Below, in pieces: positions 1-33,784 of a DNA stretch of 41,182 bases. Position 1 is the stretch's first letter. The number at the start of each line of letters is the position of its first letter. The stretch comes from a virus (Duplodnaviria; Caudoviricetes): positions 1 to 41,182 of the IMG/VR virus record IMGVR_UViG_3300032233_003247; one strand, given 5' to 3'. The position numbers and the translations under genes were made by a program. The notes below the pieces were generated by a model. That model was given only the letters and a program-made list of their open reading frames with translations, had not been told where the DNA came from and searched no databases.

Positions 1-263
1 AGACCCAGTGGCCACTGGTTGTTTAGTTAGGGGTTCCATTGTTCAGGCCAATGGAAATGCATGGAGTGTCTGGCCGCACCAGACTTAGGTTCTAATGCGA
101 ACCAACTCCATGCTTAACCTATTTCGTGGCGTCACGAAAATGGTCTAACCCCTTGGTATGACTGATGTATTAGTTGAGCACACAAAACAGCCAATACATC
201 ATTAACCTATTCTTAACCTTGCCGTATAGGTACATGCTCGGTGCATGCGTAGTACTTGCTTGG

Positions 264-515
264 TTACTTGTAATGGACTTGGCGTATGCGATAGCTAAGG
301 ACATCCCTTGACCAGGTACTGTCTGGATGATTGATTACGGCATCGAATGCTTCATTGATTGCATCATTGGAACCACCATGGTTCAGTGCATCGATTACTG
401 CATAGTCCAATGCATCCATTAGATCATCGACAGAGTTACGGTCACGTGTAGGGATGTCTCTAGCTTTAGCTTTGTAATAGTCATTGAGATCATCAGGTAG
501 TTCAGCAGTAGTCAT
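264..515 (-). CDS. Small hypothetical phage protein
   Basis: 83-aa ORF with ATG start, preceded by a G-free leader like neighbouring genes. Confidence 0.7.
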   Translation of the reverse strand: MTTAELPDDLNDYYKAKARDIPTRDRNSVDDLMDALDYAVIDALNHGGSNDAINEAFDAVINHPDSTWSRDVLSYRIRQVHYK

Positions 516-550
516 GAGTAGTGTTGGTGAATGATTGATGAGTAGTTAGA

Positions 551-580
551 GGAATAACTTCTATCTATAGAAGAGATTCC
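551..580 (-). other. Intergenic imperfect hairpin (possible RNA processing site)
   Basis: GGAAT-AA-CTTCTA-TCTA-TAGAAG-AG-ATTCC; same layout as the hairpin at 1246-1278. Confidence 0.5.
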
Positions 581-649
581 CTGGTACGGGTTGTTGGTGG
601 GGGTATGGGGGGACAGTAGTTATCTGTCAATACCTCATTAGTTTGTTAT

Positions 650-1006
650 TTAAATTAAATAGAGAAGCCTAAGCCAGCTGTCGCAATAGTCGGGTTCGAC
701 CTCGTCTTCCGCTGGCGTGAAGCAGACTGAGTCGAAGGTCCACTCTTCGAGGTCTTCGAGGCACGGGATGTCGTACCAACCTTCGAGGTCGGCCTTCTCT
801 TTTGCGGTGTAGTTACCACCGCTTGGCTTCCAGTAATAACGGTAGACTCCACGCTTGTTTTGGTAGATACTACCGGGCTTTGGGAGTCCACCTTCTTTTG
901 GATCGTAGTTAACTTCTGGTTCGAACTGGAGTTCAGCTTCGTTACCAGTGAGGGGTTCATAGCCAACTGCGTAGGCAATGAATTTCTGTTCAGTTGTAAG
1001 AGCCAT
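650..1006 (-). CDS. Hypothetical phage protein
   Basis: 118-aa ORF with globular composition; C-terminal DSVC..VEPD..SWL..L.LI segment resembles small phage proteins. Confidence 0.75.
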   Translation of the reverse strand: MALTTEQKFIAYAVGYEPLTGNEAELQFEPEVNYDPKEGGLPKPGSIYQNKRGVYRYYWKPSGGNYTAKEKADLEGWYDIPCLEDLEEWTFDSVCFTPAEDEVEPDYCDSWLRLLYLI

Positions 1007-1095
1007 TTGATTGCTTGGATGAGTAATGTGAATAGGATATAGACAGCCGCCACAATTAATGTGACGGTGTCATAGTTACTTAACTTGTTCTTCAT
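655..1095 (-). CDS. Possible overprinted membrane-anchored S/T/K-rich protein
   Basis: Open frame overlapping 650-1006; N-terminal hydrophobic helix (VTLIVAAVYILFTLLIQAI) lies in the non-overlapping part; start taken at the second ATG (1095). Confidence 0.4.
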   Translation of the reverse strand: MKNKLSNYDTVTLIVAAVYILFTLLIQAIKWLLQLNRNSLPTQLAMNPSLVTKLNSSSNQKLTTIQKKVDSQSPVVSTKTSVESTVITGSQAVVTTPQKRRPTSKVGTTSRASKTSKSGPSTQSASRQRKTRSNPTIATAGLGFSI

Positions 1096-1222
1096 AGTAA
1101 ACCTCTGTGTATTCTTCGCGTAGTGCGTTAGCCATTTCATATGCCAGGTCCGCCATTGCGTCTACGTAGTCAGCAACGGCTTGGTCCTGGAGTTGATCAA
1201 GTTCTGGTTGTGAGTAAACCAA
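1076..1222 (-). CDS. Small acidic helical protein (48 aa, not in ORF track)
   Basis: TTG-started ORF MVYSQPELDQLQDQAVADYVDAMADLAYEMANALREEYTEVYYEEQVK after a G-poor leader. Confidence 0.6.
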   Translation of the reverse strand: MVYSQPELDQLQDQAVADYVDAMADLAYEMANALREEYTEVYYEEQVK

Positions 1223-1245
1223 GATTAAGTTGCAATGGGATAGTT

Positions 1246-1278
1246 GAAATCTCGATAACTGACAGTTATCAGGATTCC
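1246..1278 (-). other. Intergenic hairpin with 2x2 internal loop
   Basis: GAAATC-TC-GATAACT-GAC-AGTTATC-AG-GATTCC. Confidence 0.55.
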
Positions 1279-1305
1279 GAGTAGTTTAAGGACATACTCA
1301 GGTCC
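1279..1305 (-). ncRNA. Candidate compact H-type pseudoknot
   Basis: Minus strand GGAC-CTGAGTAT-GTCC-TTAAAC-TACTC: stem GGAC/GTCC, and loop GAGTA pairs with downstream TACTC. Confidence 0.5.
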
Positions 1306-1361
1306 ATTCAACGATTAAGATTTAGATTCCTCCTTGGCAGCTCCACAACCTATAAGTACGG

Positions 1362-1583
1362 TTACGACTGCTGCAAGGGGGGATGTGGGGGTGTACAAAA
1401 GTTAGGACCTTTGTACGTAACTTCGTTTGGGACAGGGTCACCATAGGCATACTCTCCTTCTAGTTGATAGATCAAACTGACGGAAGAGGTGACGCCTTTA
1501 ACGTGTACTGTTAGTTGAGTGCCTTTGCAAATGATAGAGACATGCTCTGGTTTGGCAAAGTCTATTTGATCGGTTACTTCCAT
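1362..1583 (-). CDS. Hypothetical protein
   Basis: 73-aa ORF closely packed behind 1586-1816. Confidence 0.6.
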   Translation of the reverse strand: MEVTDQIDFAKPEHVSIICKGTQLTVHVKGVTSSVSLIYQLEGEYAYGDPVPNEVTYKGPNFCTPPHPPLQQS

Positions 1584-1585
1584 AG

Positions 1586-1816
1586 TTAGTTGTGTGCAAC
1601 GAAGTCTGAACTAGATGTTAGTTCATTGATGGGGATGACGTCTGCCTCCCTGAGTTCCTCTGGGAAGCAGCCTTCATAGTCTTCTGATTGATTTTCAATT
1701 ACTTCACAACCAGCATCTTCGAGCTGGTATACGGCATTGTTCCAAGTATTAGCAGAGACTGAAACTGTGGCATAACGCCCAGTTGAGTCTGTAATTAATG
1801 CAATGTATTGAGTCAT
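1586..1816 (-). CDS. Hypothetical acidic protein
   Basis: 76-aa ORF with ATGA overlap to upstream gene. Confidence 0.75.
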   Translation of the reverse strand: MTQYIALITDSTGRYATVSVSANTWNNAVYQLEDAGCEVIENQSEDYEGCFPEELREADVIPINELTSSSDFVAHN

Positions 1817-2016
1817 GGTTTAAGTTGAGGAATTGAATGGTTAGGCATTTGAATTAGTTTGGTTACATCCGTACCAAACAATGCGCCAACCGTCATTGTG
1901 GCAATGCCAATTACCATGCAGAATGTAAGGAATGCTTCCATGTAGTTAACCGGTGGTTCACCATAGGAATCAAGATGAATATATTTGCCTTTATCAAGTT
2001 TGATAATCTGTTTCAT
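1813..2016 (-). CDS. Small membrane protein
   Basis: 67 aa with one hydrophobic stretch (AFLTFCMVIGIATMTVGALF). Confidence 0.7.
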   Translation of the reverse strand: MKQIIKLDKGKYIHLDSYGEPPVNYMEAFLTFCMVIGIATMTVGALFGTDVTKLIQMPNHSIPQLKP

Positions 2017-2040
2017 GTAAGTTAAGTTAGTAGTGTTGAC

Positions 2041-2098
2041 GTAGACCTCATGGGTGAGGCCTACAGAAAAGGACCGAAGTCCCTTAGTGTAGGCGTCA
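2041..2098 (-). repeat. Structured intergenic element, copy C (a - UUCG hairpin - a' - a)
   Basis: TGA-C-GCCTAC-ACT-AAGGGAC-TTCG-GTCCTTT-TCT-GTAGGC-CTCACCCATGAG-GTCTAC; begins at stop codon of 2096-2473. Confidence 0.7.
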
Positions 2099-2473
2099 GA
2101 CAGTTAGAGCTTCTTCTGCGAGTTGAGCTACGGCTTTTGGCTTGGAACCAAAAGCATAGCTGGTAACACGCATTTGAAACTCTGGGTTCTTAAGCGGAGT
2201 AAGGACATCGTCTTTCATGTAGAAAGCACGAATGCCTTTAATAGTTCCTCCGATAGTTAGCTCTTGACCAACAACAAGATTGCCATTGTTGAATGCAGTC
2301 ATCAGCCCATTGCTATTAGTGAAACGTACACGAATGTTCGTATTCTCATTAATGGTATGCATGAGGGTAATGGCCAAGAAGTCTTGACCTTCATGCGTAG
2401 CAAGTTCCATGTGAGCAATGCGTCCATGGAGACTGAGCTGCTGGAAGTCAGGGAGCTGTTTAAGTTCAGTCAT
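2096..2473 (-). CDS. SSB-like OB-fold single-stranded DNA-binding protein
   Basis: Pattern LSLHGRI..FLAITL..IRVRF..LVVGQELTIGGTI..Y matches the SSB strand layout. Confidence 0.6.
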   Translation of the reverse strand: MTELKQLPDFQQLSLHGRIAHMELATHEGQDFLAITLMHTINENTNIRVRFTNSNGLMTAFNNGNLVVGQELTIGGTIKGIRAFYMKDDVLTPLKNPEFQMRVTSYAFGSKPKAVAQLAEEALTV

Positions 2474-2533
2474 AGTTAGAGCTGAGTTGAGTTAGTAGGT
2501 AGTACATATGTATGTCCGTACAGTGTACGTACA

Positions 2534-2584
2534 GCAGACAGTGAAGTCTGCAGGGAGAGCCGAAGCCCTCCGGGCAGACATCTA
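2534..2584 (-). repeat. Structured intergenic element, copy B
   Basis: TAG-AT-GTCTGC-CC-GGAGGGC-TTCG-GCTCTCC-CT-GCAGAC-TTCACT-GTCTGC; begins at stop codon of 2582-2734. Confidence 0.75.
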
Positions 2585-2734
2585 CCAATCGTGGATACGC
2601 ACCACATTTAAATCAACAAGTTTCTTGTTGAGTAGTTCTGCGCCCATGACTAATGCTTGAGTCCGTGTTCGAGCCATTAGCTCAATCACAGACTGTGCAT
2701 GCCATACGCGCCAAACAGTTAATGCGTTATCCAT
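2582..2734 (-). CDS. Small hypothetical protein (50 aa)
   Basis: Start re-assigned to ATG 2734, which overlaps the upstream stop (TAATG). Confidence 0.65.
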   Translation of the reverse strand: MDNALTVWRVWHAQSVIELMARTRTQALVMGAELLNKKLVDLNVVRIHDW

Positions 2735-2991
2735 TATTCCTCGATGCCATATTCCTGTTCCCACTTCAGTGCGACACGGTTGATGTCAACCTTCTTCTGA
2801 AGCAGTGCACAGATTGGCAGTAGGTCTTCAAATCGTGCCATACCATCTTGAAATTGATAGAACAGTTCAAGAGCTGCTTGACGCCGCTCTTCAACATTCC
2901 AATCAATACAAGGTAGTTCGTCACTAGAATCCCTACGTGCCAATAGCCTGGCATCGTGGGTTAGTAGATGTTCAACTTGTGCAACGTTCAT
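2734..2991 (-). CDS. Hypothetical protein (85 aa)
   Basis: Start re-assigned to ATG 2991 after a G-free leader; the longer track ORF runs through RNA element A. Confidence 0.7.
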   Translation of the reverse strand: MNVAQVEHLLTHDARLLARRDSSDELPCIDWNVEERRQAALELFYQFQDGMARFEDLLPICALLQKKVDINRVALKWEQEYGIEE

Positions 2992-3015
2992 GATTGAAGT
3001 TGAGTTGTGTTGAGA

Positions 3016-3065
3016 GCAGACAGTGAAGTCTGCAGAGAGGACCGGAGTCCTCTGGGCAAACATCA
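3016..3065 (-). repeat. Structured intergenic element, copy A
   Basis: TGA-T-GTTTGC-CC-AGAGGAC-TCCG-GTCCTCT-CT-GCAGAC-TTCACT-GTCTGC; begins at stop codon of 3063-3263. Confidence 0.75.
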
Positions 3066-3263
3066 TTGACAGTAGTTGTAGTAATCAACTAGTTCAGCAT
3101 GTAGTTCTGAGACTCCTGCTGGTATACCACCACCAAGAGTACGAACATCTTTATCGTGCCAGATGCCATTACTGTCACTGCACTCATAATGAAGCTGAGT
3201 TGATTCACCGCCATACCAAATGGTACGGTCGTGTGAGTTGTTTGTAGGTTGATAGATAAACAT
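3063..3263 (-). CDS. Hypothetical protein (66 aa), first gene of leftward array
   Basis: Start re-assigned to ATG 3263 (MFIYQPTNN...). Confidence 0.7.
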   Translation of the reverse strand: MFIYQPTNNSHDRTIWYGGESTQLHYECSDSNGIWHDKDVRTLGGGIPAGVSELHAELVDYYNYCQ

Positions 3264-3297
3264 TGACTTGAACAAGCCACACTCAGTGTGTGACAAG

Positions 3298-3345
3298 ACT
3301 GAGCCTGGGGTTTGCACCCAAGCATGCCGCTTGCACGGACTCAGT
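3298..3345 (-). ncRNA. Candidate three-way-junction leader RNA with two TGCAA loops
   Basis: ACTGAG..CCG-TGCAAG-CGG..GCTTGGG-TGCAAAC-CCCAGGC-TCAGT; outer stem ACTGA/TCAGT. Confidence 0.5.
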
Positions 3346-3408
3346 TAGTTGTGTAGCAATTTGCTACAACCAAACCATCCGAAGTTCATGTAGCTTTTGA
3401 ATTAGCTT

Positions 3409-3531
3409 TGTGAATAAGCTTATGCACATGGATGTGCAAAAGCAACAATATAAAATGTGGAAACATAATTAATTACATCCAATTAAAGTTGAGTTTGTCT
3501 GTGGAAAACCTGTGGAAAACCTGTGGAAAAC
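3409..3531. promoter_or_regulatory. DnaA-box cluster, putative replication origin
   Basis: Three TGTGGAAAA (rc TTTTCCACA) at 3500, 3511, 3522 in an 11-bp tandem repeat; TGTGAATAA 3409 and TTATGCACA 3420 fit TTATNCACA; two degenerate boxes at 3433 and 3456. Confidence 0.65.
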
Positions 3532-3951
3532 AATAGCTCCAAATAAATTACAGTCCTGTTTCGAAGATGCGGGTCGGCGGAGCGCGCCCCAAAATCAGGC
3601 GCGATTATGCGTAAATTGCATAGATGTTGATTGATTTGAGGTGATTACATTATCCGTTGGTTCTAATTGTCATATAACTTAATTATTACGGTGTCTTCTC
3701 ATGGTGCGACCCCACATTCTTTTTTTTTCCTCCCACATTCACTTTCGGCTTGGGGTTTGGAGAAGGGTCAGGTAAATCTAACCCCTATTTAGGGTATATA
3801 CGGCCCTTTTTTAAAACACACTGACCCCCTTTGGGGGTACATTGACTCATGATAGGGGTAGTTTTAATTTATTTTTAAAAATTACAATCCCTACGTTGAA
3901 GTAAAAATGCGTTTTTGTATGTACTTTCCCCAATTAGCCCAAGAATTCACA

Positions 3952-3984
3952 CAAAAAAGCCGGGGATTTTATTCCCCGGACTTT
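3952..3984 (-). terminator. Rho-independent terminator of 4010-4219
   Basis: CCGGGGA/TCCCCGG stem followed by a U-run on the minus strand. Confidence 0.7.
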
Positions 3985-4009
3985 GCTTATTTTTTGAACT
4001 GTCTAAAAC

Positions 4010-4219
4010 TTACCTTCGATTTTTAGCAGCCTTAGCCACCTGGGCCGCAGCAGCATACATTTCGGGATCTGGGCGTTGTTTGCCGAGTTCACGTCGGGCA
4101 CCGGCAATAAACGTTTGAATTTCAAAACCTTCTTTACCTTCTTGCGCTAATTCCTGTGCTTTATCGGAAATTGCAGTTAAAGCAATTGCGCGTTCTGTCC
4201 TAGGTTTTGGTGTGTCCAT
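4010..4219 (-). CDS. Small helical hypothetical protein
   Basis: 69-aa ORF with its own terminator and a TAGACT -10-like element at 4272-4277. Confidence 0.7.
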   Translation of the reverse strand: MDTPKPRTERAIALTAISDKAQELAQEGKEGFEIQTFIAGARRELGKQRPDPEMYAAAAQVAKAAKNRR

Positions 4220-4346
4220 GGCAAAAATAATAGTTTTTCCTTAATTGTCGGTAAAACTTTTTGTTAATTCAAGTCTATAGCATTTATTTTTTGTGTTGCA
4301 GGCTTTAAAATACAAAAAAGACGTACATTAGTAAAAATAAAGTTCA

Positions 4347-5909
4347 ATGGCGTTATCTCCTGCTGATTTTTACGCGTATAGCAATGCCACTGGAACGCCA
4401 TACCCAGAAAATGCAGAAGATCGTGCATATTTAGCACCGGAAGTCTTGGAGTTTCGCCGTAATCAACTCAAGTCTCCACAACAAGAGTCAAATATCCTTC
4501 AAACAATTGGAGCAGCAGTACTTGGTCTTGGTGCGTTAGGTGCAGCGGGAGTTGCTGGTCGTCGTCTGCTAAGGCCCGTAGGAAAATCCGCAACTGCTGG
4601 CGTACGTCAAGTTGATCTAGCGGAGCTTGCCAAGAACCGTGGAAATCTAGAACGTGTTTCTAGCTCAAAAATTGTTACAGAACCCGCCGTCAAACCAGCA
4701 ACTGTTGATCTTGTTGAGAAATCTAAAATTCTTGAAACCATTACTCAAAAATATCCAGAGCAAGGGGAGGAAATTCCTTTTGTTCCTTATCACGCCACTC
4801 GTGATGTAGATCCGTCAGAGACTCCGGTCTTCATGGGATTCACAGCTGGTGGTCAACCTAAGTTATTGCAAAATCCACCGTTACCTGCAGTACTTAAACA
4901 AGCACGTCAAGGCGTATTTCCTGAGGCTTCCAGTTTGACGGGGCTTCAAGATTTGCTTGAGCCGGCTCAAAGCGTACAAGTTAGTAATGCGCTTGAAACA
5001 GGAGCCAACCAAAGCATAGGACGGGTAGAGCACCTGGATCAGTTAAATCAAAAATATGACGTTACTCAAGATGCTCTTGTAAATAAAACACTAGAAACAC
5101 GTACAATCACTTCGCAAGAGCTTGCAGATATTGCAAAAGAACAAATGATTACCCGCCGACAAAACCTTGTGGACCGCGGGTTTACACCAGGTACAGCGCG
5201 GTTTGAACATGAGCTTTCTCAAGGTCCGTTACCGCTTGTTGTAACTAAAGCCGTTGAAGCAGCTGGTGCAAATCCACTTGATCCTCTTGGCGAATTAAAA
5301 GAAAGAAGTTTGGTTAATATTGGCCCAGAAGCACAGGTTGAGACAACGGCAGCAGGCACGGCAATTCGGGGAGCAACTCCTGTATTGCATGAAGCACTTC
5401 CAAAAACCAGTCTTCGTCAGCTGTTAGGTGGTGAAATGGGTCCTGATATCCCCGGTTCGCAACGTGTCCGTGGAGCTTTATCGGCAGATATTCCAGCTGA
5501 ACAACTTTCAAAACAAGAAATTACTTACGGCTTTCTTAACCAAGCACCTGAACCTGAAATTGTTGGAGGTTCTGCAGGCATTGGTGTGTATGGATTGGAA
5601 TCAGGTTTTGTCCCTGGCGCAATGAGTAAAGCAACAGGTGAGTTTTCAGCAGCTTCCGAACGTAAGCCAACATATGTTCCAGCATGGCTTGCTAAACGTG
5701 AGCAGACACCATTTGCAAATCTTTCACCTACTGGTTTAGAAAACGCATTAGCAAAAGCCGGAAAGTCGGGAACTGCAGCAATTCAAAATGAAATGCAACG
5801 TCGTCAAATTAATCGTGAAAGCGTTGCAGCAAGTGAAGCGTTACGTCGAGCTAGAATCGAAGGACGTGATCCGCAAATGATCCTCAAGCAACTGGGTGTT
5901 GTTAATTAA
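4347..5909 (+). CDS. Hypothetical protein, possibly internal virion protein
   Basis: 520-aa ORF with an N-terminal Gly/Ala hydrophobic segment; first gene of the rightward block. Confidence 0.75.
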   Translation: MALSPADFYAYSNATGTPYPENAEDRAYLAPEVLEFRRNQLKSPQQESNILQTIGAAVLGLGALGAAGVAGRRLLRPVGKSATAGVRQVDLAELAKNRGNLERVSSSKIVTEPAVKPATVDLVEKSKILETITQKYPEQGEEIPFVPYHATRDVDPSETPVFMGFTAGGQPKLLQNPPLPAVLKQARQGVFPEASSLTGLQDLLEPAQSVQVSNALETGANQSIGRVEHLDQLNQKYDVTQDALVNKTLETRTITSQELADIAKEQMITRRQNLVDRGFTPGTARFEHELSQGPLPLVVTKAVEAAGANPLDPLGELKERSLVNIGPEAQVETTAAGTAIRGATPVLHEALPKTSLRQLLGGEMGPDIPGSQRVRGALSADIPAEQLSKQEITYGFLNQAPEPEIVGGSAGIGVYGLESGFVPGAMSKATGEFSAASERKPTYVPAWLAKREQTPFANLSPTGLENALAKAGKSGTAAIQNEMQRRQINRESVAASEALRRARIEGRDPQMILKQLGVVN

Positions 5910-5911
5910 TC

Positions 5912-6728: not shown

Positions 6729-7298
6729 GTGAACTTTCAACGCTTATTAAATTTTGCCAGGCGTGAAAAAGACGTTCTTCCTTCAGTGGCAACTGGCAGT
6801 GCGTTGTCAGGTCTATTTGGACTGCTTACAGGCGGTCCTGCTGCTGGCGCTGCTTATGGCCTTGGAGACTTAGCTTTAGCTTATCCAGCTACTCTTGGAA
6901 CGCGAGCAGTTGCTAAAAAATTAATTACCAAACCTATTGCAGGTATTGAACCAAAAGTTCTACAACAAGGTGCCGAAACCATTGCAAATCTTGGTGCATC
7001 AATCGCATCAGTACCCTTGGTAGATACTGTTACAGCTGGACGTTTATATCCTCAAGTGCAACCAACCAATATTTCGCAAGAACAGCAAATCATGCAAGAA
7101 ATGGTCCAACGAGCTAATGTTAATAAGTTAGACACACAAGCGGTAGCCCCTGGAACTCAATTTCAAACTGCAGGCATTGAGTTTTTACATGATTACATAG
7201 GACGTGGTCCACAACAATCTCGTGACATGTATGCAGCTACCCTAGGACCAGAAAACTATGCGCTATTAGCCGAGTACGGAGGATTACCCCGTGGCTGA
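6729..7298 (+). CDS. Gly/Ala-rich putative internal virion protein
   Basis: Glycine-zipper-like hydrophobic segments; TATAAT at 6701. Confidence 0.7.
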   Translation: MNFQRLLNFARREKDVLPSVATGSALSGLFGLLTGGPAAGAAYGLGDLALAYPATLGTRAVAKKLITKPIAGIEPKVLQQGAETIANLGASIASVPLVDTVTAGRLYPQVQPTNISQEQQIMQEMVQRANVNKLDTQAVAPGTQFQTAGIEFLHDYIGRGPQQSRDMYAATLGPENYALLAEYGGLPRG

Positions 7299-8199
7299 AA
7301 TCCCAAAGCTTTCACCACTTAAACAAGGTTACAAAACAGCCGAAAGGCTGATGACTGAAACCGACTCATACAACTTATCTGTTGGCTCACCTACATTTAA
7401 AAAACGCCTTGCTGCTGAAGGCGTAACTCTTCGTCAAACCCCTGGTCAGTTTGCTGGTGCGTACGCAGCACGTTTAGTTGCTGACGTTACAAATGATGGT
7501 ACACGTTCTCAGTGGTGGCGTTTCAATCATCCAGAAGCACTTAAAAATAAACTAGTTGAATCAGCAATTGGCAAAGAGGCGGCCCAAGAAATGGGACCGA
7601 TTAAAAAAGGTTTGTTGATGACTTCGGTCCTTGGTCCTTCGGCGGCGGTGACCGGTGCATACGACCTTACAAACGTTGGACAGCAATTTAGACCTGCTGG
7701 CTTTGCGCAAGCCTATGCCGAAGAGGGCTCGGAAGATCGCAGAGAAACATCACAACCGGTACCTGAATTATTTGAACGTTTCTTTTTAGGGCGTACGGGA
7801 CGCCCACTTGCATATGAAGAAGCTAAAAAAGACATTCCTGATTTAACTCCTCAACGGTATGGTGATTTTCTTAGAAATTATTATCAAGACAAAGGTGTTT
7901 TAGGTGTTTTAAAAGCAACGCCAGAAAATTTACAAGGTGTACCAGAAGTTCGTCTTCTAGGTTTTCCTGTAACCATTCCATCAGTAACCGCTGCTGCTGG
8001 TGGTGCCGCTGCAGTTGGTGCAGCGACACGTTTGATAAAAGGTCCAGGACGTTTTGGTAAGGCTGCTGCCGCCGGTCTTGTAGGCTCATTGGGAGGTGTT
8101 GCATTTGGTAATTTAGTTAATGAAATAATTGCGCAAGCAAATCGTCCAACATTACCAACAACTGATGAGTATCAAAGCATGAATACTGATAGAATTTAA
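7291..8199 (+). CDS. Gly/Ala-rich putative internal virion protein
   Basis: 302 aa with C-terminal glycine-zipper hydrophobic helices. Confidence 0.7.
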   Translation: MAEIPKLSPLKQGYKTAERLMTETDSYNLSVGSPTFKKRLAAEGVTLRQTPGQFAGAYAARLVADVTNDGTRSQWWRFNHPEALKNKLVESAIGKEAAQEMGPIKKGLLMTSVLGPSAAVTGAYDLTNVGQQFRPAGFAQAYAEEGSEDRRETSQPVPELFERFFLGRTGRPLAYEEAKKDIPDLTPQRYGDFLRNYYQDKGVLGVLKATPENLQGVPEVRLLGFPVTIPSVTAAAGGAAAVGAATRLIKGPGRFGKAAAAGLVGSLGGVAFGNLVNEIIAQANRPTLPTTDEYQSMNTDRI

Positions 8200-11654: not shown

Positions 11655-11815
11655 TGCAAGCATCAGCCGCTGATCCTCATTTCTCAAACGAGGGTGTTGA
11701 CTTAGGTCAATACGAAAAAGCGGCTTCACTTGCTTATAAGTTTGCCAAACAACGTGCCGAAAAAGATCAATCAAAAGAATCGGAAGATTCCCTTGATCAA
11801 AAAAGTAATTTTTAA
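11654..11815 (+). CDS. Small protein (53 aa, not in ORF track)
   Basis: MQASAADPHFSNEGVDLGQYEKAASLAYKFAKQRAEK...; TGATG coupling with upstream stop. Confidence 0.65.
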   Translation: MQASAADPHFSNEGVDLGQYEKAASLAYKFAKQRAEKDQSKESEDSLDQKSNF

Positions 11816-11827
11816 TTAGTTATTGTC

Positions 11828-12112
11828 ATGGCTGATACTTCTTCAACATTTGCGGATGATCTATCAAGTGATCCGTATGCTTTATTGTTTGATGAAGATA
11901 AAGCGCGACAAGCCGCTAGTGCTGCTAAGATCTTTCAAGATGTTTCTGTCGGCTCGACAATAAAGAAAGGAGAAGCTGCTGGTGAACAAGAACGTGAGAC
12001 CATCGGTAAAGGAGCAGAAGAGCAACGAGCTTCTGCCACTCAGCAACAAGAGTTCAAGCAAAGAGACGAAGAGCGAGATTATAACCAGGCCCAGCGAGCA
12101 TATCGATATTGA
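11828..12112 (+). CDS. Small acidic helical protein
   Basis: 94-aa ATG ORF. Confidence 0.7.
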   Translation: MADTSSTFADDLSSDPYALLFDEDKARQAASAAKIFQDVSVGSTIKKGEAAGEQERETIGKGAEEQRASATQQQEFKQRDEERDYNQAQRAYRY

Positions 12113-12599
12113 GTTATTTGACCAATGGGTCGATAATTTAACATGTGCCGAACAAGAAGCATTTTTAGCTTTTGCTTCAGACAACTTTTCAATTATTGAA
12201 AGCTTTCTTTATGCCCGTTTCCTTGGGTATAGAGGGAGCATTATTTCGTGTGAGTTGTGGATTAAATCTCGATATAAAAAACCAGATCATCGCAAAACAC
12301 TCTTGTATGAGATTGAAGAAATGCAAGAAGACATTAGAAAATTGCGTGACGATATTGATAATAGTGTTGTTAAACGTGATGCAGGAGTTGCTCGTATTGC
12401 ATCAATGCAAAAAGAGTTGCGAGGCACAATTGCTCAAGTAGAAACGTTCAGCAACACCAAAGACCGTAAGGGGTTGTTAATGGCTGGAGCTGATCGTGCC
12501 ATTCGTGAGTTAATGTTTATTTTTAAAGATGATCCTATTGAAATTCCTTTGGAAGAAGCGTCCATGAGTGTATGGGCACGTATGCAGCTTGAAGAATAA
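11982..12599 (+). CDS. Hypothetical protein, candidate terminase small subunit
   Basis: Helical/coiled-coil protein two genes upstream of terL; start uncertain; function inferred from position only. Confidence 0.5.
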   Translation: MNKNVRPSVKEQKSNELLPLSNKSSSKETKSEIITRPSEHIDIELFDQWVDNLTCAEQEAFLAFASDNFSIIESFLYARFLGYRGSIISCELWIKSRYKKPDHRKTLLYEIEEMQEDIRKLRDDIDNSVVKRDAGVARIASMQKELRGTIAQVETFSNTKDRKGLLMAGADRAIRELMFIFKDDPIEIPLEEASMSVWARMQLEE

Positions 12600-12617: not shown

Positions 12618-12950
12618 ATGGTTGACCAACGCCCTGTTACAGTACCCGGTGAAAATGGCCAGATTGCTGGACGGTTGATGGATGTTGTTCGTCAACTGCA
12701 GAAAAACCGTGAGTCTGCTGCCGGTATCTTACGTCCTTTTCCGCTTGCACAGAATGTTGCTGGCGGCGCAGAAGTAATGTCCGCTTTACATGCCGCCAAA
12801 CAAAATGAGCAAAAACAAAATGCCGCCCCAGCTCCTGGAGCACTTCAAAAAGAAAGAAGCCAAGAACAAGGATGGCAGCGAAATGTCGGACAAGGAAAAA
12901 CGCCAGGCCGCCCTGGACAAGGCCCGCAAATATCAGGAGCAAAACCGTAA
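12618..12950 (+). CDS. Hypothetical protein
   Basis: 110 aa; TAAAAT ends 6 nt before ATG (possibly leaderless). Confidence 0.65.
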   Translation: MVDQRPVTVPGENGQIAGRLMDVVRQLQKNRESAAGILRPFPLAQNVAGGAEVMSALHAAKQNEQKQNAAPAPGALQKERSQEQGWQRNVGQGKTPGRPGQGPQISGAKP

Positions 12951-19164: not shown

Positions 19165-19990
19165 AGCTAGTTCAGATCCTGGTAGGTGTGTCCTTTTAGG
19201 ATTTGGTAAATAGCACCGTGATTACAGTTGAATTTTTCGGCAATCTTTCGATATGAAAGCCCAGCCTTCTTTAAAGATTTAATAGTAATCACGTCTTCCG
19301 AAGAAAACTTTCTTAAAGACTTCTTCGGTTTCCCTTTACTGGCAAAACCATTATTTTGGTAAGCCCCGAATTCCCAAGCCTTTATTAAATTTTCTTGCTT
19401 GGTAACAATTTCAAGATTTTCAATCCGGTTATTCCGTTTGTTGTGATCCTTGTGATTGACCTGAAGAGAAAAATTATGAGTCCCATGGGAACGAAGGTCC
19501 AATCCAAGAAATGAAACCGCCATTAACACGTGTAAGTGAAAGCGTTTCTTTCTTCCATTTATAAGAACTGAGACCCTGTCATAACCACTGGTTGAGCTAA
19601 TAGGAAGTTCTTCAAGTTCTTCTTGGTTCAGGTCATTAAGTTTTTTCTTAAAGGCTCGACCGTCTTCCGTTAAGTAAAGGTTACCAAGCCCGGGTACAAG
19701 TTTTGGATCCACGTTGTTCATCAACATTTTTCCAAAGCATAACATGCCTCAACTGAACGCTCAACGTTGTCACCTCATCAAGCAATTGGTGAGTGAAAAC
19801 CGGATGAATTCAGGGAAGCCCTAACGTAAAGTCGAGGGTAATCCTGAGCGAAGCCAATCAAGATCGTGATTGGAACGTGCAGAGACTACTGGGTGTAACA
19901 CGCACTTGTTACGTAATACCAGATCTAGCGTCCGGCATCCCACGTGGATGAAGAGATAGTCCACCCCTCTAAGAAACTAGAGACCAGGAG
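19165..19990 (+). mobile_element. Group I self-splicing intron in the major capsid gene
   Basis: P (GAATTCAGGGAAG 19806), Q (AATCCTGAGC 19840), R (GTGCAGAGACTA 19877), S (AAGAGATAGTCC 19951); P3 CCGGATG/CGTCCGG; IGS CGTTGTCA 19765-19772; terminal G at 19990. Confidence 0.92.
19167..19745 (-). CDS. Intron-encoded HNH homing endonuclease (antisense)
   Basis: HVLMAVSF..QVNHKDHNKRNNRIENLEIVTKQEN (I-HmuI-like HNH) plus C-terminal HTH (GLSYRKIAEKFNC). Confidence 0.9.
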   Translation of the reverse strand: MLCFGKMLMNNVDPKLVPGLGNLYLTEDGRAFKKKLNDLNQEELEELPISSTSGYDRVSVLINGRKKRFHLHVLMAVSFLGLDLRSHGTHNFSLQVNHKDHNKRNNRIENLEIVTKQENLIKAWEFGAYQNNGFASKGKPKKSLRKFSSEDVITIKSLKKAGLSYRKIAEKFNCNHGAIYQILKGHTYQDLN

Positions 19991-33472: not shown

Positions 33473-33784
33473 ATGAAAACAGGAATGGAAAGTTCAGTGG
33501 AACCCAGGGAATTTGAGCTTCCTTTGGAGCTTCAATTTGCAATGCGCAAAGCTGAGTTACAAGCGCAAGAGATGACCTGGGATCAACTATATGCCGCTCT
33601 TCTAAACCTATACCACCAACGTTTGATGGAGTGGCATGCGGTTAAAGAAATTCTAGAAGATGAGAACATCAAGCTTGACTTTGATGTTCCCACCGATTTG
33701 GAATTAGCTGAACTCGCCGCCGCATGTGTGTACGACGACGAGGATGACGAAGATGAAGATGATGACGATCTTCAACCTTTTTGA
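33473..33784 (+). CDS. nblA: NblA-like phycobilisome degradation adaptor with acidic tail
   Basis: ELPLELQFAMRKAELQAQEMTWDQLYAALLNLYHQRLM fits NblA L.lEqqF..ms.eq..l..l..q.m. Confidence 0.65.
   Translation: MKTGMESSVEPREFELPLELQFAMRKAELQAQEMTWDQLYAALLNLYHQRLMEWHAVKEILEDENIKLDFDVPTDLELAELAAACVYDDEDDEDEDDDDLQPF

What the first reader, a model, noticed from the sequence alone, without database searches (positions are those of the whole stretch)
2041..3065. Three covarying bistable RNA elements, each starting at a stop codon: candidate translation-coupled switch
Seen on the minus strand: three intergenic elements (3016-3065, 2534-2584, 2041-2098) share the layout stop codon - a - [7-bp hairpin with cUNCGg loop] - a' - loop - a. 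Copies A/B use GT(T/C)TGC / GCAGAC / GTCTGC. Copy C uses a different set, GCCTAC / GTAGGC / GTCTAC, so the three-way complementarity is preserved while the sequence changes. The a' strand can pair with the 5' a (one long stem with an internal loop) or with the 3' a (two hairpins), but not both. The 5' a lies 1-2 nt after the upstream stop, within the footprint of a terminating ribosome. There is no U-tract, so these are not intrinsic terminators. Inference: a switch coupling upstream translation to processing, stability or antitermination of the downstream cistron. It could also serve as a recombination handle for gene cassette shuffling. I do not recognise it as a described family.
Basis: partly seen in the sequence, partly recalled or inferred. 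Interest (0 to 1): 0.8.

Follow-up and report, generated by a model that had tools for sequence, protein, structure and literature searches.

The report
Cut-and-refold RNA signals between cyanophage genes
Between the small genes of this lake cyanobacterial virus sit three copies of a widespread folded RNA signal that resembles a piece of the host's ribosomal-RNA precursor and likely marks where a host enzyme cuts the long message, after which each piece would keep a protective hairpin at its new end.

Summary
The three elements are real and belong to a large family with no Rfam match: 263 distinct copies in 157 viral loci, in S-EIV1-like phages and in the T7-like phage S-CBP4. The long fold dominates the intact RNA (median probability 0.99), so it is not an equilibrium switch. 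The 3' arm takes over only if the 5' arm is removed, by a cut or a ribosome. The lower stem matches the host pre-23S rRNA processing stalk at 15-16 of 22 letters, and six hairpins of phage SPO1 show the same three-arm layout. Best reading: a host RNase III site, cut once just before the middle strand, leaving both products capped by hairpins (0.5). The cut position is not settled: the same scoring puts the host stalk's cut 7 rungs lower, which would turn the 3' arm into a ribosome-triggered competitor (0.2). No cleavage is shown. The scan had already noted this family on other DNA.

The parts
3016..3065 (-). Copy A: UGA stop of the 66-aa ORF, U.U mismatch, arm a, 2x2 pyrimidine loop, 7-bp hairpin, a', UCA, a2. 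Predicted cut 3034/3033; rival register 3027/3026
2534..2584 (-). Copy B: UAG stop of the 50-aa ORF, same layout. Predicted cut 2552/2551
2041..2098 (-). Copy C (GUAG type): UGA stop of the 125-aa ORF, C.C mismatch, longer loop before a2. Predicted cut 2065/2064
3063..3263 (-). 66-aa ORF upstream of copy A, no PHROG match
2734..2991 (-). 85-aa ORF downstream of copy A, conserved in S-EIV1-like phages; ATG 24 nt after a2
2582..2734 (-). 50-aa ORF upstream of copy B (weak phrog_5397); missing between the same neighbours in L004/L008
2096..2473 (-). 125-aa ORF between copies B and C, conserved in S-EIV1-like phages
1813..2016 (-). 67-aa ORF downstream of copy C; ATG 24 nt after a2

Best explanation
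Each element is likely a processing site for the host's RNase III in the phage's long, probably early message: the RNA is predicted to fold first into one long stem, the enzyme would cut once on the 3' side of the central pyrimidine loop, and the freed middle strand would then pair with the 3' arm. Shown: the conserved ladder of pairs, the covarying 3' arm, the intergenic position and the likeness to the host pre-23S stalk. Computed: the long stem dominates before a cut; after a cut just 5' of a', the downstream piece begins with a blunt 6-bp hairpin and the upstream piece ends in the GC-rich hairpin plus about 2-3 nt. Inferred: RNase III is the enzyme; the cut is single and lies before a'; a2 displaces a and so releases the two products; the two hairpins slow 5' decay (RNase J, RNase E) and 3' decay, so each cistron gets its own stability.
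For: (1) Lower-stem covariation: 4 of 11 pairs change on both sides, score 0.292 against 0.121 shuffled, 53 sequences. (2) With the E. coli RNase III pair table (PMC6212723, Table S4), a cut before a' scores best of 16 registers for 261 copies, and is the only register with a positive proximal-box score. (3) Dyad symmetry about that point, in a part the searches did not constrain: an A-U/U-A pair 7 rungs above the invariant U-A in 97 of 97 copies with a 24-nt insert and 30 of 34 with a 22-nt insert. This is the spacing of the two pairs touched by the conserved glutamine (PMC3867540 section 7). (4) The distance to the loop is free (21-64 nt), as for bacterial RNase III (PMC1540722). (5) The host pre-23S stalk carries the same ladder in 17 of 18 operons; window copies match 16, 16 and 15 of 22 letters, a level reached by 9 of 7969 stem-like ladders in the window, 3 of them the elements themselves. 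Full-length RNase III cuts distally in this stalk in Synechococcus 7002 (PMC5829567 section 19). (6) a':a2 pairing is complete from the first base of a' and falls to 57% one base before; after the predicted cut the first base is paired with median probability 1.0. (7) T7 and SP82 sites with internal loops are cut once, downstream (PMC1935012 passage). (8) Six SPO1 intergenic hairpins show an a/a'/a2 layout, 3 of them starting at a stop codon. (9) No RNase III domain in 3 of 3 relatives of about 82 kb; present in 2 of 2 cyanobacterial genomes.
Against: No RNA ends were seen. The same table puts the host stalk's best register 7 rungs lower, and the published B. subtilis 16S cut (+67) falls at about that lower register in Bacillus-type trailers; so the block shared with the host may be centred on a different bond. 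The full 24-position score of the phage copies is negative (-1.5) and picked the wrong register for the Bacillus stalk; the register one base lower is close. The pair next to the predicted cut is C-G in 117 of 119 copies, a 7- to 14-fold inhibitor for the E. coli enzyme in vitro. Cyanobacterial enzymes often cut E. coli targets at other positions. The A-U above the loop falls to 35 of 82 in inserts of 26-32 nt. The host 5' arm is also boxA, so its conservation need not reflect RNase III. Pairing at the first four bases of a' was partly built into my patterns. A GUAGCC subgroup lacks a2 (7 of 119). Only 4 of 6 SPO1 downstream pieces fold into the 5' hairpin alone.
Confidence: 0.5

Rival explanations
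1. An RNase III site cut in the host's register (at the pyrimidine mismatch, just before UCA, and/or 2 nt after the stop), with a2 as a competitor: a ribosome ending at the stop melts a, a' snaps to a2 and the site is lost, so cutting depends on upstream translation.
For: The block shared with the host is centred on the host's best register; U-A pairs also stand 7 rungs apart there. The stop is at the stem base in 166 of 216 copies. Masking a gives a':a2 with probability 1.0.
Against: Only 3 conserved pairs lie below that cut (5.4 of 11 rungs paired on average) and the phage score there is poor, -6.5. 50 of 216 copies lack a stop at the base. T7 and SPO1 hairpins also lie close behind stops.
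Confidence: 0.2
2. No specific cut: the two-hairpin form, opened by ribosomes, is a two-way barrier that halts 3' and 5' exonucleases after cuts elsewhere.
For: Strong upper hairpin (median -11 kcal/mol) and a conserved a':a2 hairpin; cyanobacteria have RNase J (PMC10989914 passages).
Against: It does not explain the fixed sequence of the long stem, the UGA/UCA pairs, the C.C/U.U co-variation or the likeness to the host stalk; the long fold dominates.
Confidence: 0.12
3. A new small self-cleaving ribozyme.
For: Position between small phage genes is typical of such ribozymes (own knowledge); some invariant bases.
Against: No Rfam match. Invariant positions are paired, and the loops are variable and pyrimidine-rich, with no conserved purine core.
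Confidence: 0.05
4. An antitermination signal (boxA-like, or two hairpins like put).
For: The host arm it resembles is boxA, which also stands before CRISPR arrays and a tRNA cluster.
Against: 262 of 263 copies match only 2-7 of 12 boxA letters (one matches 9), 2 of them fixed by my search; the arm is paired; copies recur after almost every gene.
Confidence: 0.04
5. Mainly DNA repeats that serve as recombination handles for gene cassettes.
For: Neighbours vary: the 85-aa family follows an element in 19 cases with 8 different upstream families.
Against: Copies in one genome diverge while keeping the RNA pairing; G-U pairs and UNCG loops are strand-specific; the 50-aa gene gained or lost before copy B is not flanked by two copies. 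It can be a side effect.
Confidence: 0.04

Closest known systems
RNase III processing signals of phage T7 early mRNA (five signals, PMC3867540 passage)
   Same: Long imperfect hairpins between small early genes, internal loop, single downstream cut that leaves a 3' hairpin; one copy lies upstream of the RNA polymerase gene in the T7-like phage S-CBP4.
   Different: No sequence likeness (model finds nothing in the T7 left end). No conserved third arm: 1 of 5 T7 sites gives a clear 5' hairpin after the cut (cut coordinates recalled).
RNase III sites of Bacillus phage SP82 early mRNA and the related hairpins of SPO1
   Same: Single cut in the downstream strand (PMC1935012 passage). In SPO1, six hairpins, three starting at a stop, each followed by an arm that can pair with the 3' strand, one copy with a compensating change.
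   Different: Different sequence, bulged pairing, other host. That the SPO1 hairpins are the SP82-type sites, and their exact cut, is recalled; the record does not annotate them.
Cyanobacterial pre-23S rRNA leader-trailer stalk (boxA arm with the 23S-5S spacer arm)
   Same: Same 11-rung ladder, UGA-N-NNYUGC-A with U-GCAG-NN-Y-UCA.
   Different: The host arms are 3 kb apart, go on pairing below UGA, have A-U where the phage has a pyrimidine mismatch, carry a full boxA and have no a2; the predicted cut register differs by 7.

Membership tests
Phage RNase III processing signal (T7/SP82 type) | Imperfect double helix of about two turns with a half-site of about 11 bp | tested here: met
   19-20 rungs in the window copies; on average 8.8 of 11 rungs paired below the predicted cut
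Phage RNase III processing signal (T7/SP82 type) | A-U or U-A at proximal-box position 2 | tested here: met
   U-A below the cut in 27 of 29 model hits that the fetch patterns did not select; A-U/U-A above it in 192 of 263
Phage RNase III processing signal (T7/SP82 type) | No G-C/C-G next to the scissile bond (E. coli in vitro rule) | tested here: inconclusive
   C-G in 117 of 119 copies breaks the rule, but so do 22 of 85 E. coli sites in vivo; the host enzyme's rule is unknown
Phage RNase III processing signal (T7/SP82 type) | Mismatch or internal loop at the cut, giving a single cut | tested here: inconclusive
   C.C in 187 of 263 at the centre of the favoured register, but the register itself is uncertain
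Phage RNase III processing signal (T7/SP82 type) | Between genes of a polycistronic early message | tested here: met
   3-4 clustered copies within 2.5 kb in four 81-83 kb relatives and none elsewhere; upstream of RNAP in S-CBP4; 'early' is inferred from position
Phage RNase III processing signal (T7/SP82 type) | Cleaved by RNase III | not testable with these tools
   Needs RNA end mapping or an in vitro assay; membership is therefore not established
rrn boxA antitermination signal | 12-nt single-stranded boxA | tested here: not met
   2-7 of 12 letters in 262 of 263 copies, and the arm is paired
Intrinsic terminator | GC-rich hairpin followed by a U tract | tested here: not met
   None of 7 terminator-like sites in window 1-4400 lies in an element
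Equilibrium two-state RNA switch controlling a start site | Two folds of near-equal energy, one hiding the start region | tested here: not met
   Median gap 3.7 kcal/mol, 12 of 112 under 1; the next ATG lies 20-29 nt beyond a2 in 77 of 112, outside both folds
Any Rfam 15 family (ribozymes, Weinberg motifs) | Match at the gathering score | tested here: not met
   None in the region or in four related phage loci and the SPO1 region

The most novel reading that the evidence does not exclude
Cyanophages of at least two unrelated lineages carry a borrowed piece of the host's pre-23S processing stalk, turned into a local hairpin with a built-in strand hand-over. One RNase III cut caps both new ends, and a ribosome finishing the upstream gene can trip the same hand-over and block the cut, so processing reads out translation. 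The same design would lie unremarked in the SPO1/SP82 sites, a general phage answer to hosts with a 5' exonuclease.
Probability: 0.2. Interest if true: 0.75.

Novelty: new variant of a known kind. Interest (0 to 1): 0.5.

Why it matters
RNase III sites in phage early messages are known to protect the upstream piece; here the same site is predicted to protect the downstream piece too, which matters in hosts that have RNase J. The family offers some 260 natural candidate substrates for a cyanobacterial RNase III whose sequence rules are not known, and a compact part for cutting operons into separately stable messages. The prediction can be tested on cultured phages (S-CBP4, S-EIV1) and on SPO1.

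Tried and rejected
Rfam: no match. Sequencing runs: no RNA holder was listed, so no ends could be read. Fremin 2023 (PMC10690425): 3 of 6 held supplementary files were searched for six family words with no hit; the alignment archives could not be read, so the family may be among its candidates. Ten paper searches ran; none listed a paper on this element, and the original SP82/SPO1 papers were not among the listings. One search used a pattern with one N too many and gave chance hits; it was replaced. The scan of bacterial genomes gave no clear copy among 118 matches, mostly chance plus REP-like repeats; the model found 1 weak hit in 121 cyanobacterial genomes. No copy in the left 6-7 kb of P-SSP7, Syn5, S-TIP37 or S-SBP1. 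My first register scans covered only shifts -5 to +6 and missed the host register; one search widened them. L316 was dropped from the host set because its 3' arm was mis-assigned. In one search, 57 of 178 raw hits were filtered out (antisense readings, weak hairpins). No promoter stood out (6 sites against 8.7 by chance). The metagenome scan was not used.

Full report
Setting. The window is a 41-kb fragment of an uncultured virus. Its left end resembles Synechococcus phage S-EIV1, and it encodes a terminase, a lysozyme and a weak NblA match, so a cyanobacterial host is likely. The three elements lie between small leftward genes of unknown function; that these are early genes is inferred from their size and position.

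Observation. The elements are where and as described. A strict descriptor finds only these three in the window; folding z-scores are -3.4 to -4.6. Rfam has no match.

Family. The descriptor demanded GA, the U-A pair, AG and Y-UCA, so those are partly fixed by construction, and a few long-insert hits may be false. A covariance model from 53 copies gave 105 distinct full-length hits in 73 loci; in the 29 that neither fetch pattern selects, G-C at the base stands in 28, U-A in the middle in 27. The model finds the S-EIV1 copy, which was not in its training set (E 7e-9), and one in S-CBP4 (E 5e-5), each at the stop of an annotated gene. Four relatives of 81-83 kb hold 3, 3, 4 and 4 copies, all within 2.5 kb. 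A marine-type GUAG subfamily is large. One of 121 cyanobacterial genomes gave a weak hit.

Anatomy. The lower stem covaries. The mismatch below it is U.U in 106 and C.C in 102 copies, mixed pyrimidines in 38 and A-containing in 17; in the 102 clusters 35, 36 and 22 (p 1e-7, not corrected for kinship). That U.U and C.C are isosteric is recalled. The 3' arm a2 follows a' through at least six sequence types. It is present in 236 of 263 copies and in 46 of 69 unselected ones, against 13-20% in shifted controls. The upper hairpin varies in loop and length. The upstream stop lies at the stem base in 166 of 216 copies with enough flank, further up in 30, inside in 9, and 11 have no ORF of 30 codons; 11% of other UGA triplets end such an ORF. 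Where the stop lies further up, the UGA is usually kept, so it is structural as well as a stop.

Not an equilibrium switch. In 112 copies with a2 the long fold has median probability 0.99 and a lead of 3.7 kcal/mol. If a is masked, or the RNA is cut before a', a':a2 forms with median probability 1.0. The next start codon lies outside both folds. None of the elements is terminator-like.

Why RNase III. Rules come from PMC1540722 (passages and two parts of the text), PMC3867540 (passages and section 7) and PMC6212723 (passages, section 27, Table S4). Scoring 261 copies in 16 registers with that table puts the best cut just before a', the only register with a positive proximal-box score. An A-U pair mirrors the invariant U-A at 7 rungs' distance in the unconstrained upper part of the short-insert copies, less so in longer ones. 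Then a recalled likeness was tested: in 17 of 18 cyanobacterial rRNA operons the arm before 23S and the arm between 23S and 5S form the same ladder (by unbiased duplex search; operon confirmed for L301). The window copies match at 15-16 of 22 letters, as do 9 of 7969 stem-like ladders of the window, three of them the elements; this comparison was chosen after seeing the motif. PMC5829567 (passages and section 19) places full-length RNase III distal in this paired region, without a mapped bond. Three relatives lack the RNase III domain, two host-type genomes have it.

What speaks against. The table places the host stalk's cut 7 rungs lower. The proximal-box score recovers that register; the 24-position score does not. 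So the block shared with the host is centred on the host's likely cut but lies below the phage's. A C-W-G block reads alike from both sides, which may explain this, but the phage could also be cut in the host register, with only three pairs below. The C-G next to my predicted cut is disfavoured for the E. coli enzyme in vitro. The host arm is also boxA, found before CRISPR arrays and a tRNA cluster without a partner arm; the phage lacks most of boxA.

Known analogues. T7 and SP82 sites with internal loops are cut once, downstream (PMC1935012 passage), and such cuts leave protective 3' hairpins. In the SPO1 record, six intergenic hairpins carry a third arm able to pair with the 3' strand; three start at a stop, and four of six downstream pieces fold that way alone. 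Their identity as RNase III sites is recalled. One of five T7 sites gives a clear 5' hairpin (recalled cut coordinates). 5' hairpins stabilise mRNA and cyanobacteria have RNase J (PMC3997798 and PMC10989914 passages). Also seen as passages only, without bearing: PMC5371410, bioRxiv 2023.03.12.532304, PMC8708148, PMC7509114, PMC10690425.

Mechanism. The long stem forms first, because a is made before a2 (inferred). Host RNase III nicks the 3' strand before a' (inferred). The upstream message ends in the upper hairpin plus about 2-3 nt, a2 displaces a, and the downstream message starts with a blunt hairpin (computed). A ribosome ending at the stop would melt a and trip the same hand-over; the UCA in the new loop could let the long stem return (inferred). 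Whether this gates cutting is open.

Verdict. Real, widespread, not in Rfam, not listed in ten paper searches; the Fremin 2023 alignments could not be seen. It works most likely like a phage RNase III signal, with a third arm as the new feature; membership is not established without a cut. Earlier agents of this scan reached a similar reading on other genomes, which I saw after forming mine and do not count as support. The host-stalk likeness, the two-register problem and the SPO1 parallel do not appear in the short notes I saw for this family.

Noticed in passing
window 3299-3344, minus strand; L001 about 2700-2745 and 2995-3030: A second conserved intergenic motif with two hairpins and a T-loop-like segment, two copies in S-EIV1; no Rfam match.
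   Followed up: no
window 1279-1305, minus strand; L001 about 3480-3505, 6965-6990, 7685-7710: A third motif that can form a small H-type pseudoknot, three copies in the S-EIV1 region.
   Followed up: no
window 3500-3530: Three copies of a 9-mer at an 11-nt period, like cyanobacterial DnaA boxes (label recalled), in the AT-rich gap between divergent gene blocks; possible origin.
   Followed up: no
window 19167-19983: Group I intron (RF00028, 19740-19983, plus strand) beside an HNH endonuclease ORF that lies on the opposite strand.
   Followed up: no
window 33473-33784: NblA-like ORF (below the Pfam cut-off) right after the lysozyme gene.
   Followed up: no
L319 (SPO1) 5790-5860, 7110-7170, 11790-11855, 12210-12275, 12420-12490, 12715-12780: Six related hairpins, each with a 3' arm that can replace the 5' arm; a possibly overlooked 5' cap in a well-studied phage.
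   Followed up: partly
L555-L557, L559, L562, L564: The rRNA boxA word also stands in cyanobacterial CRISPR leaders and before a tRNA cluster, without a partner arm.
   Followed up: partly
L016:1892-1962, L017:2134-2204, L056, L073: A GUAGCC subgroup, among the most upstream copies of its cluster in L016 and L017, lacks a2 and is often followed by a T run.
   Followed up: partly
L199, L218, L226, L229, L260, L106: Polymorphobacter genomes and one viral contig hold REP-like inverted repeats that match my pattern but are symmetric at both ends.
   Followed up: no
L146 (T7) 5888-5910: The piece downstream of the site near 5887 can form a 7-bp hairpin one base from its 5' end (cut position recalled).
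   Followed up: partly
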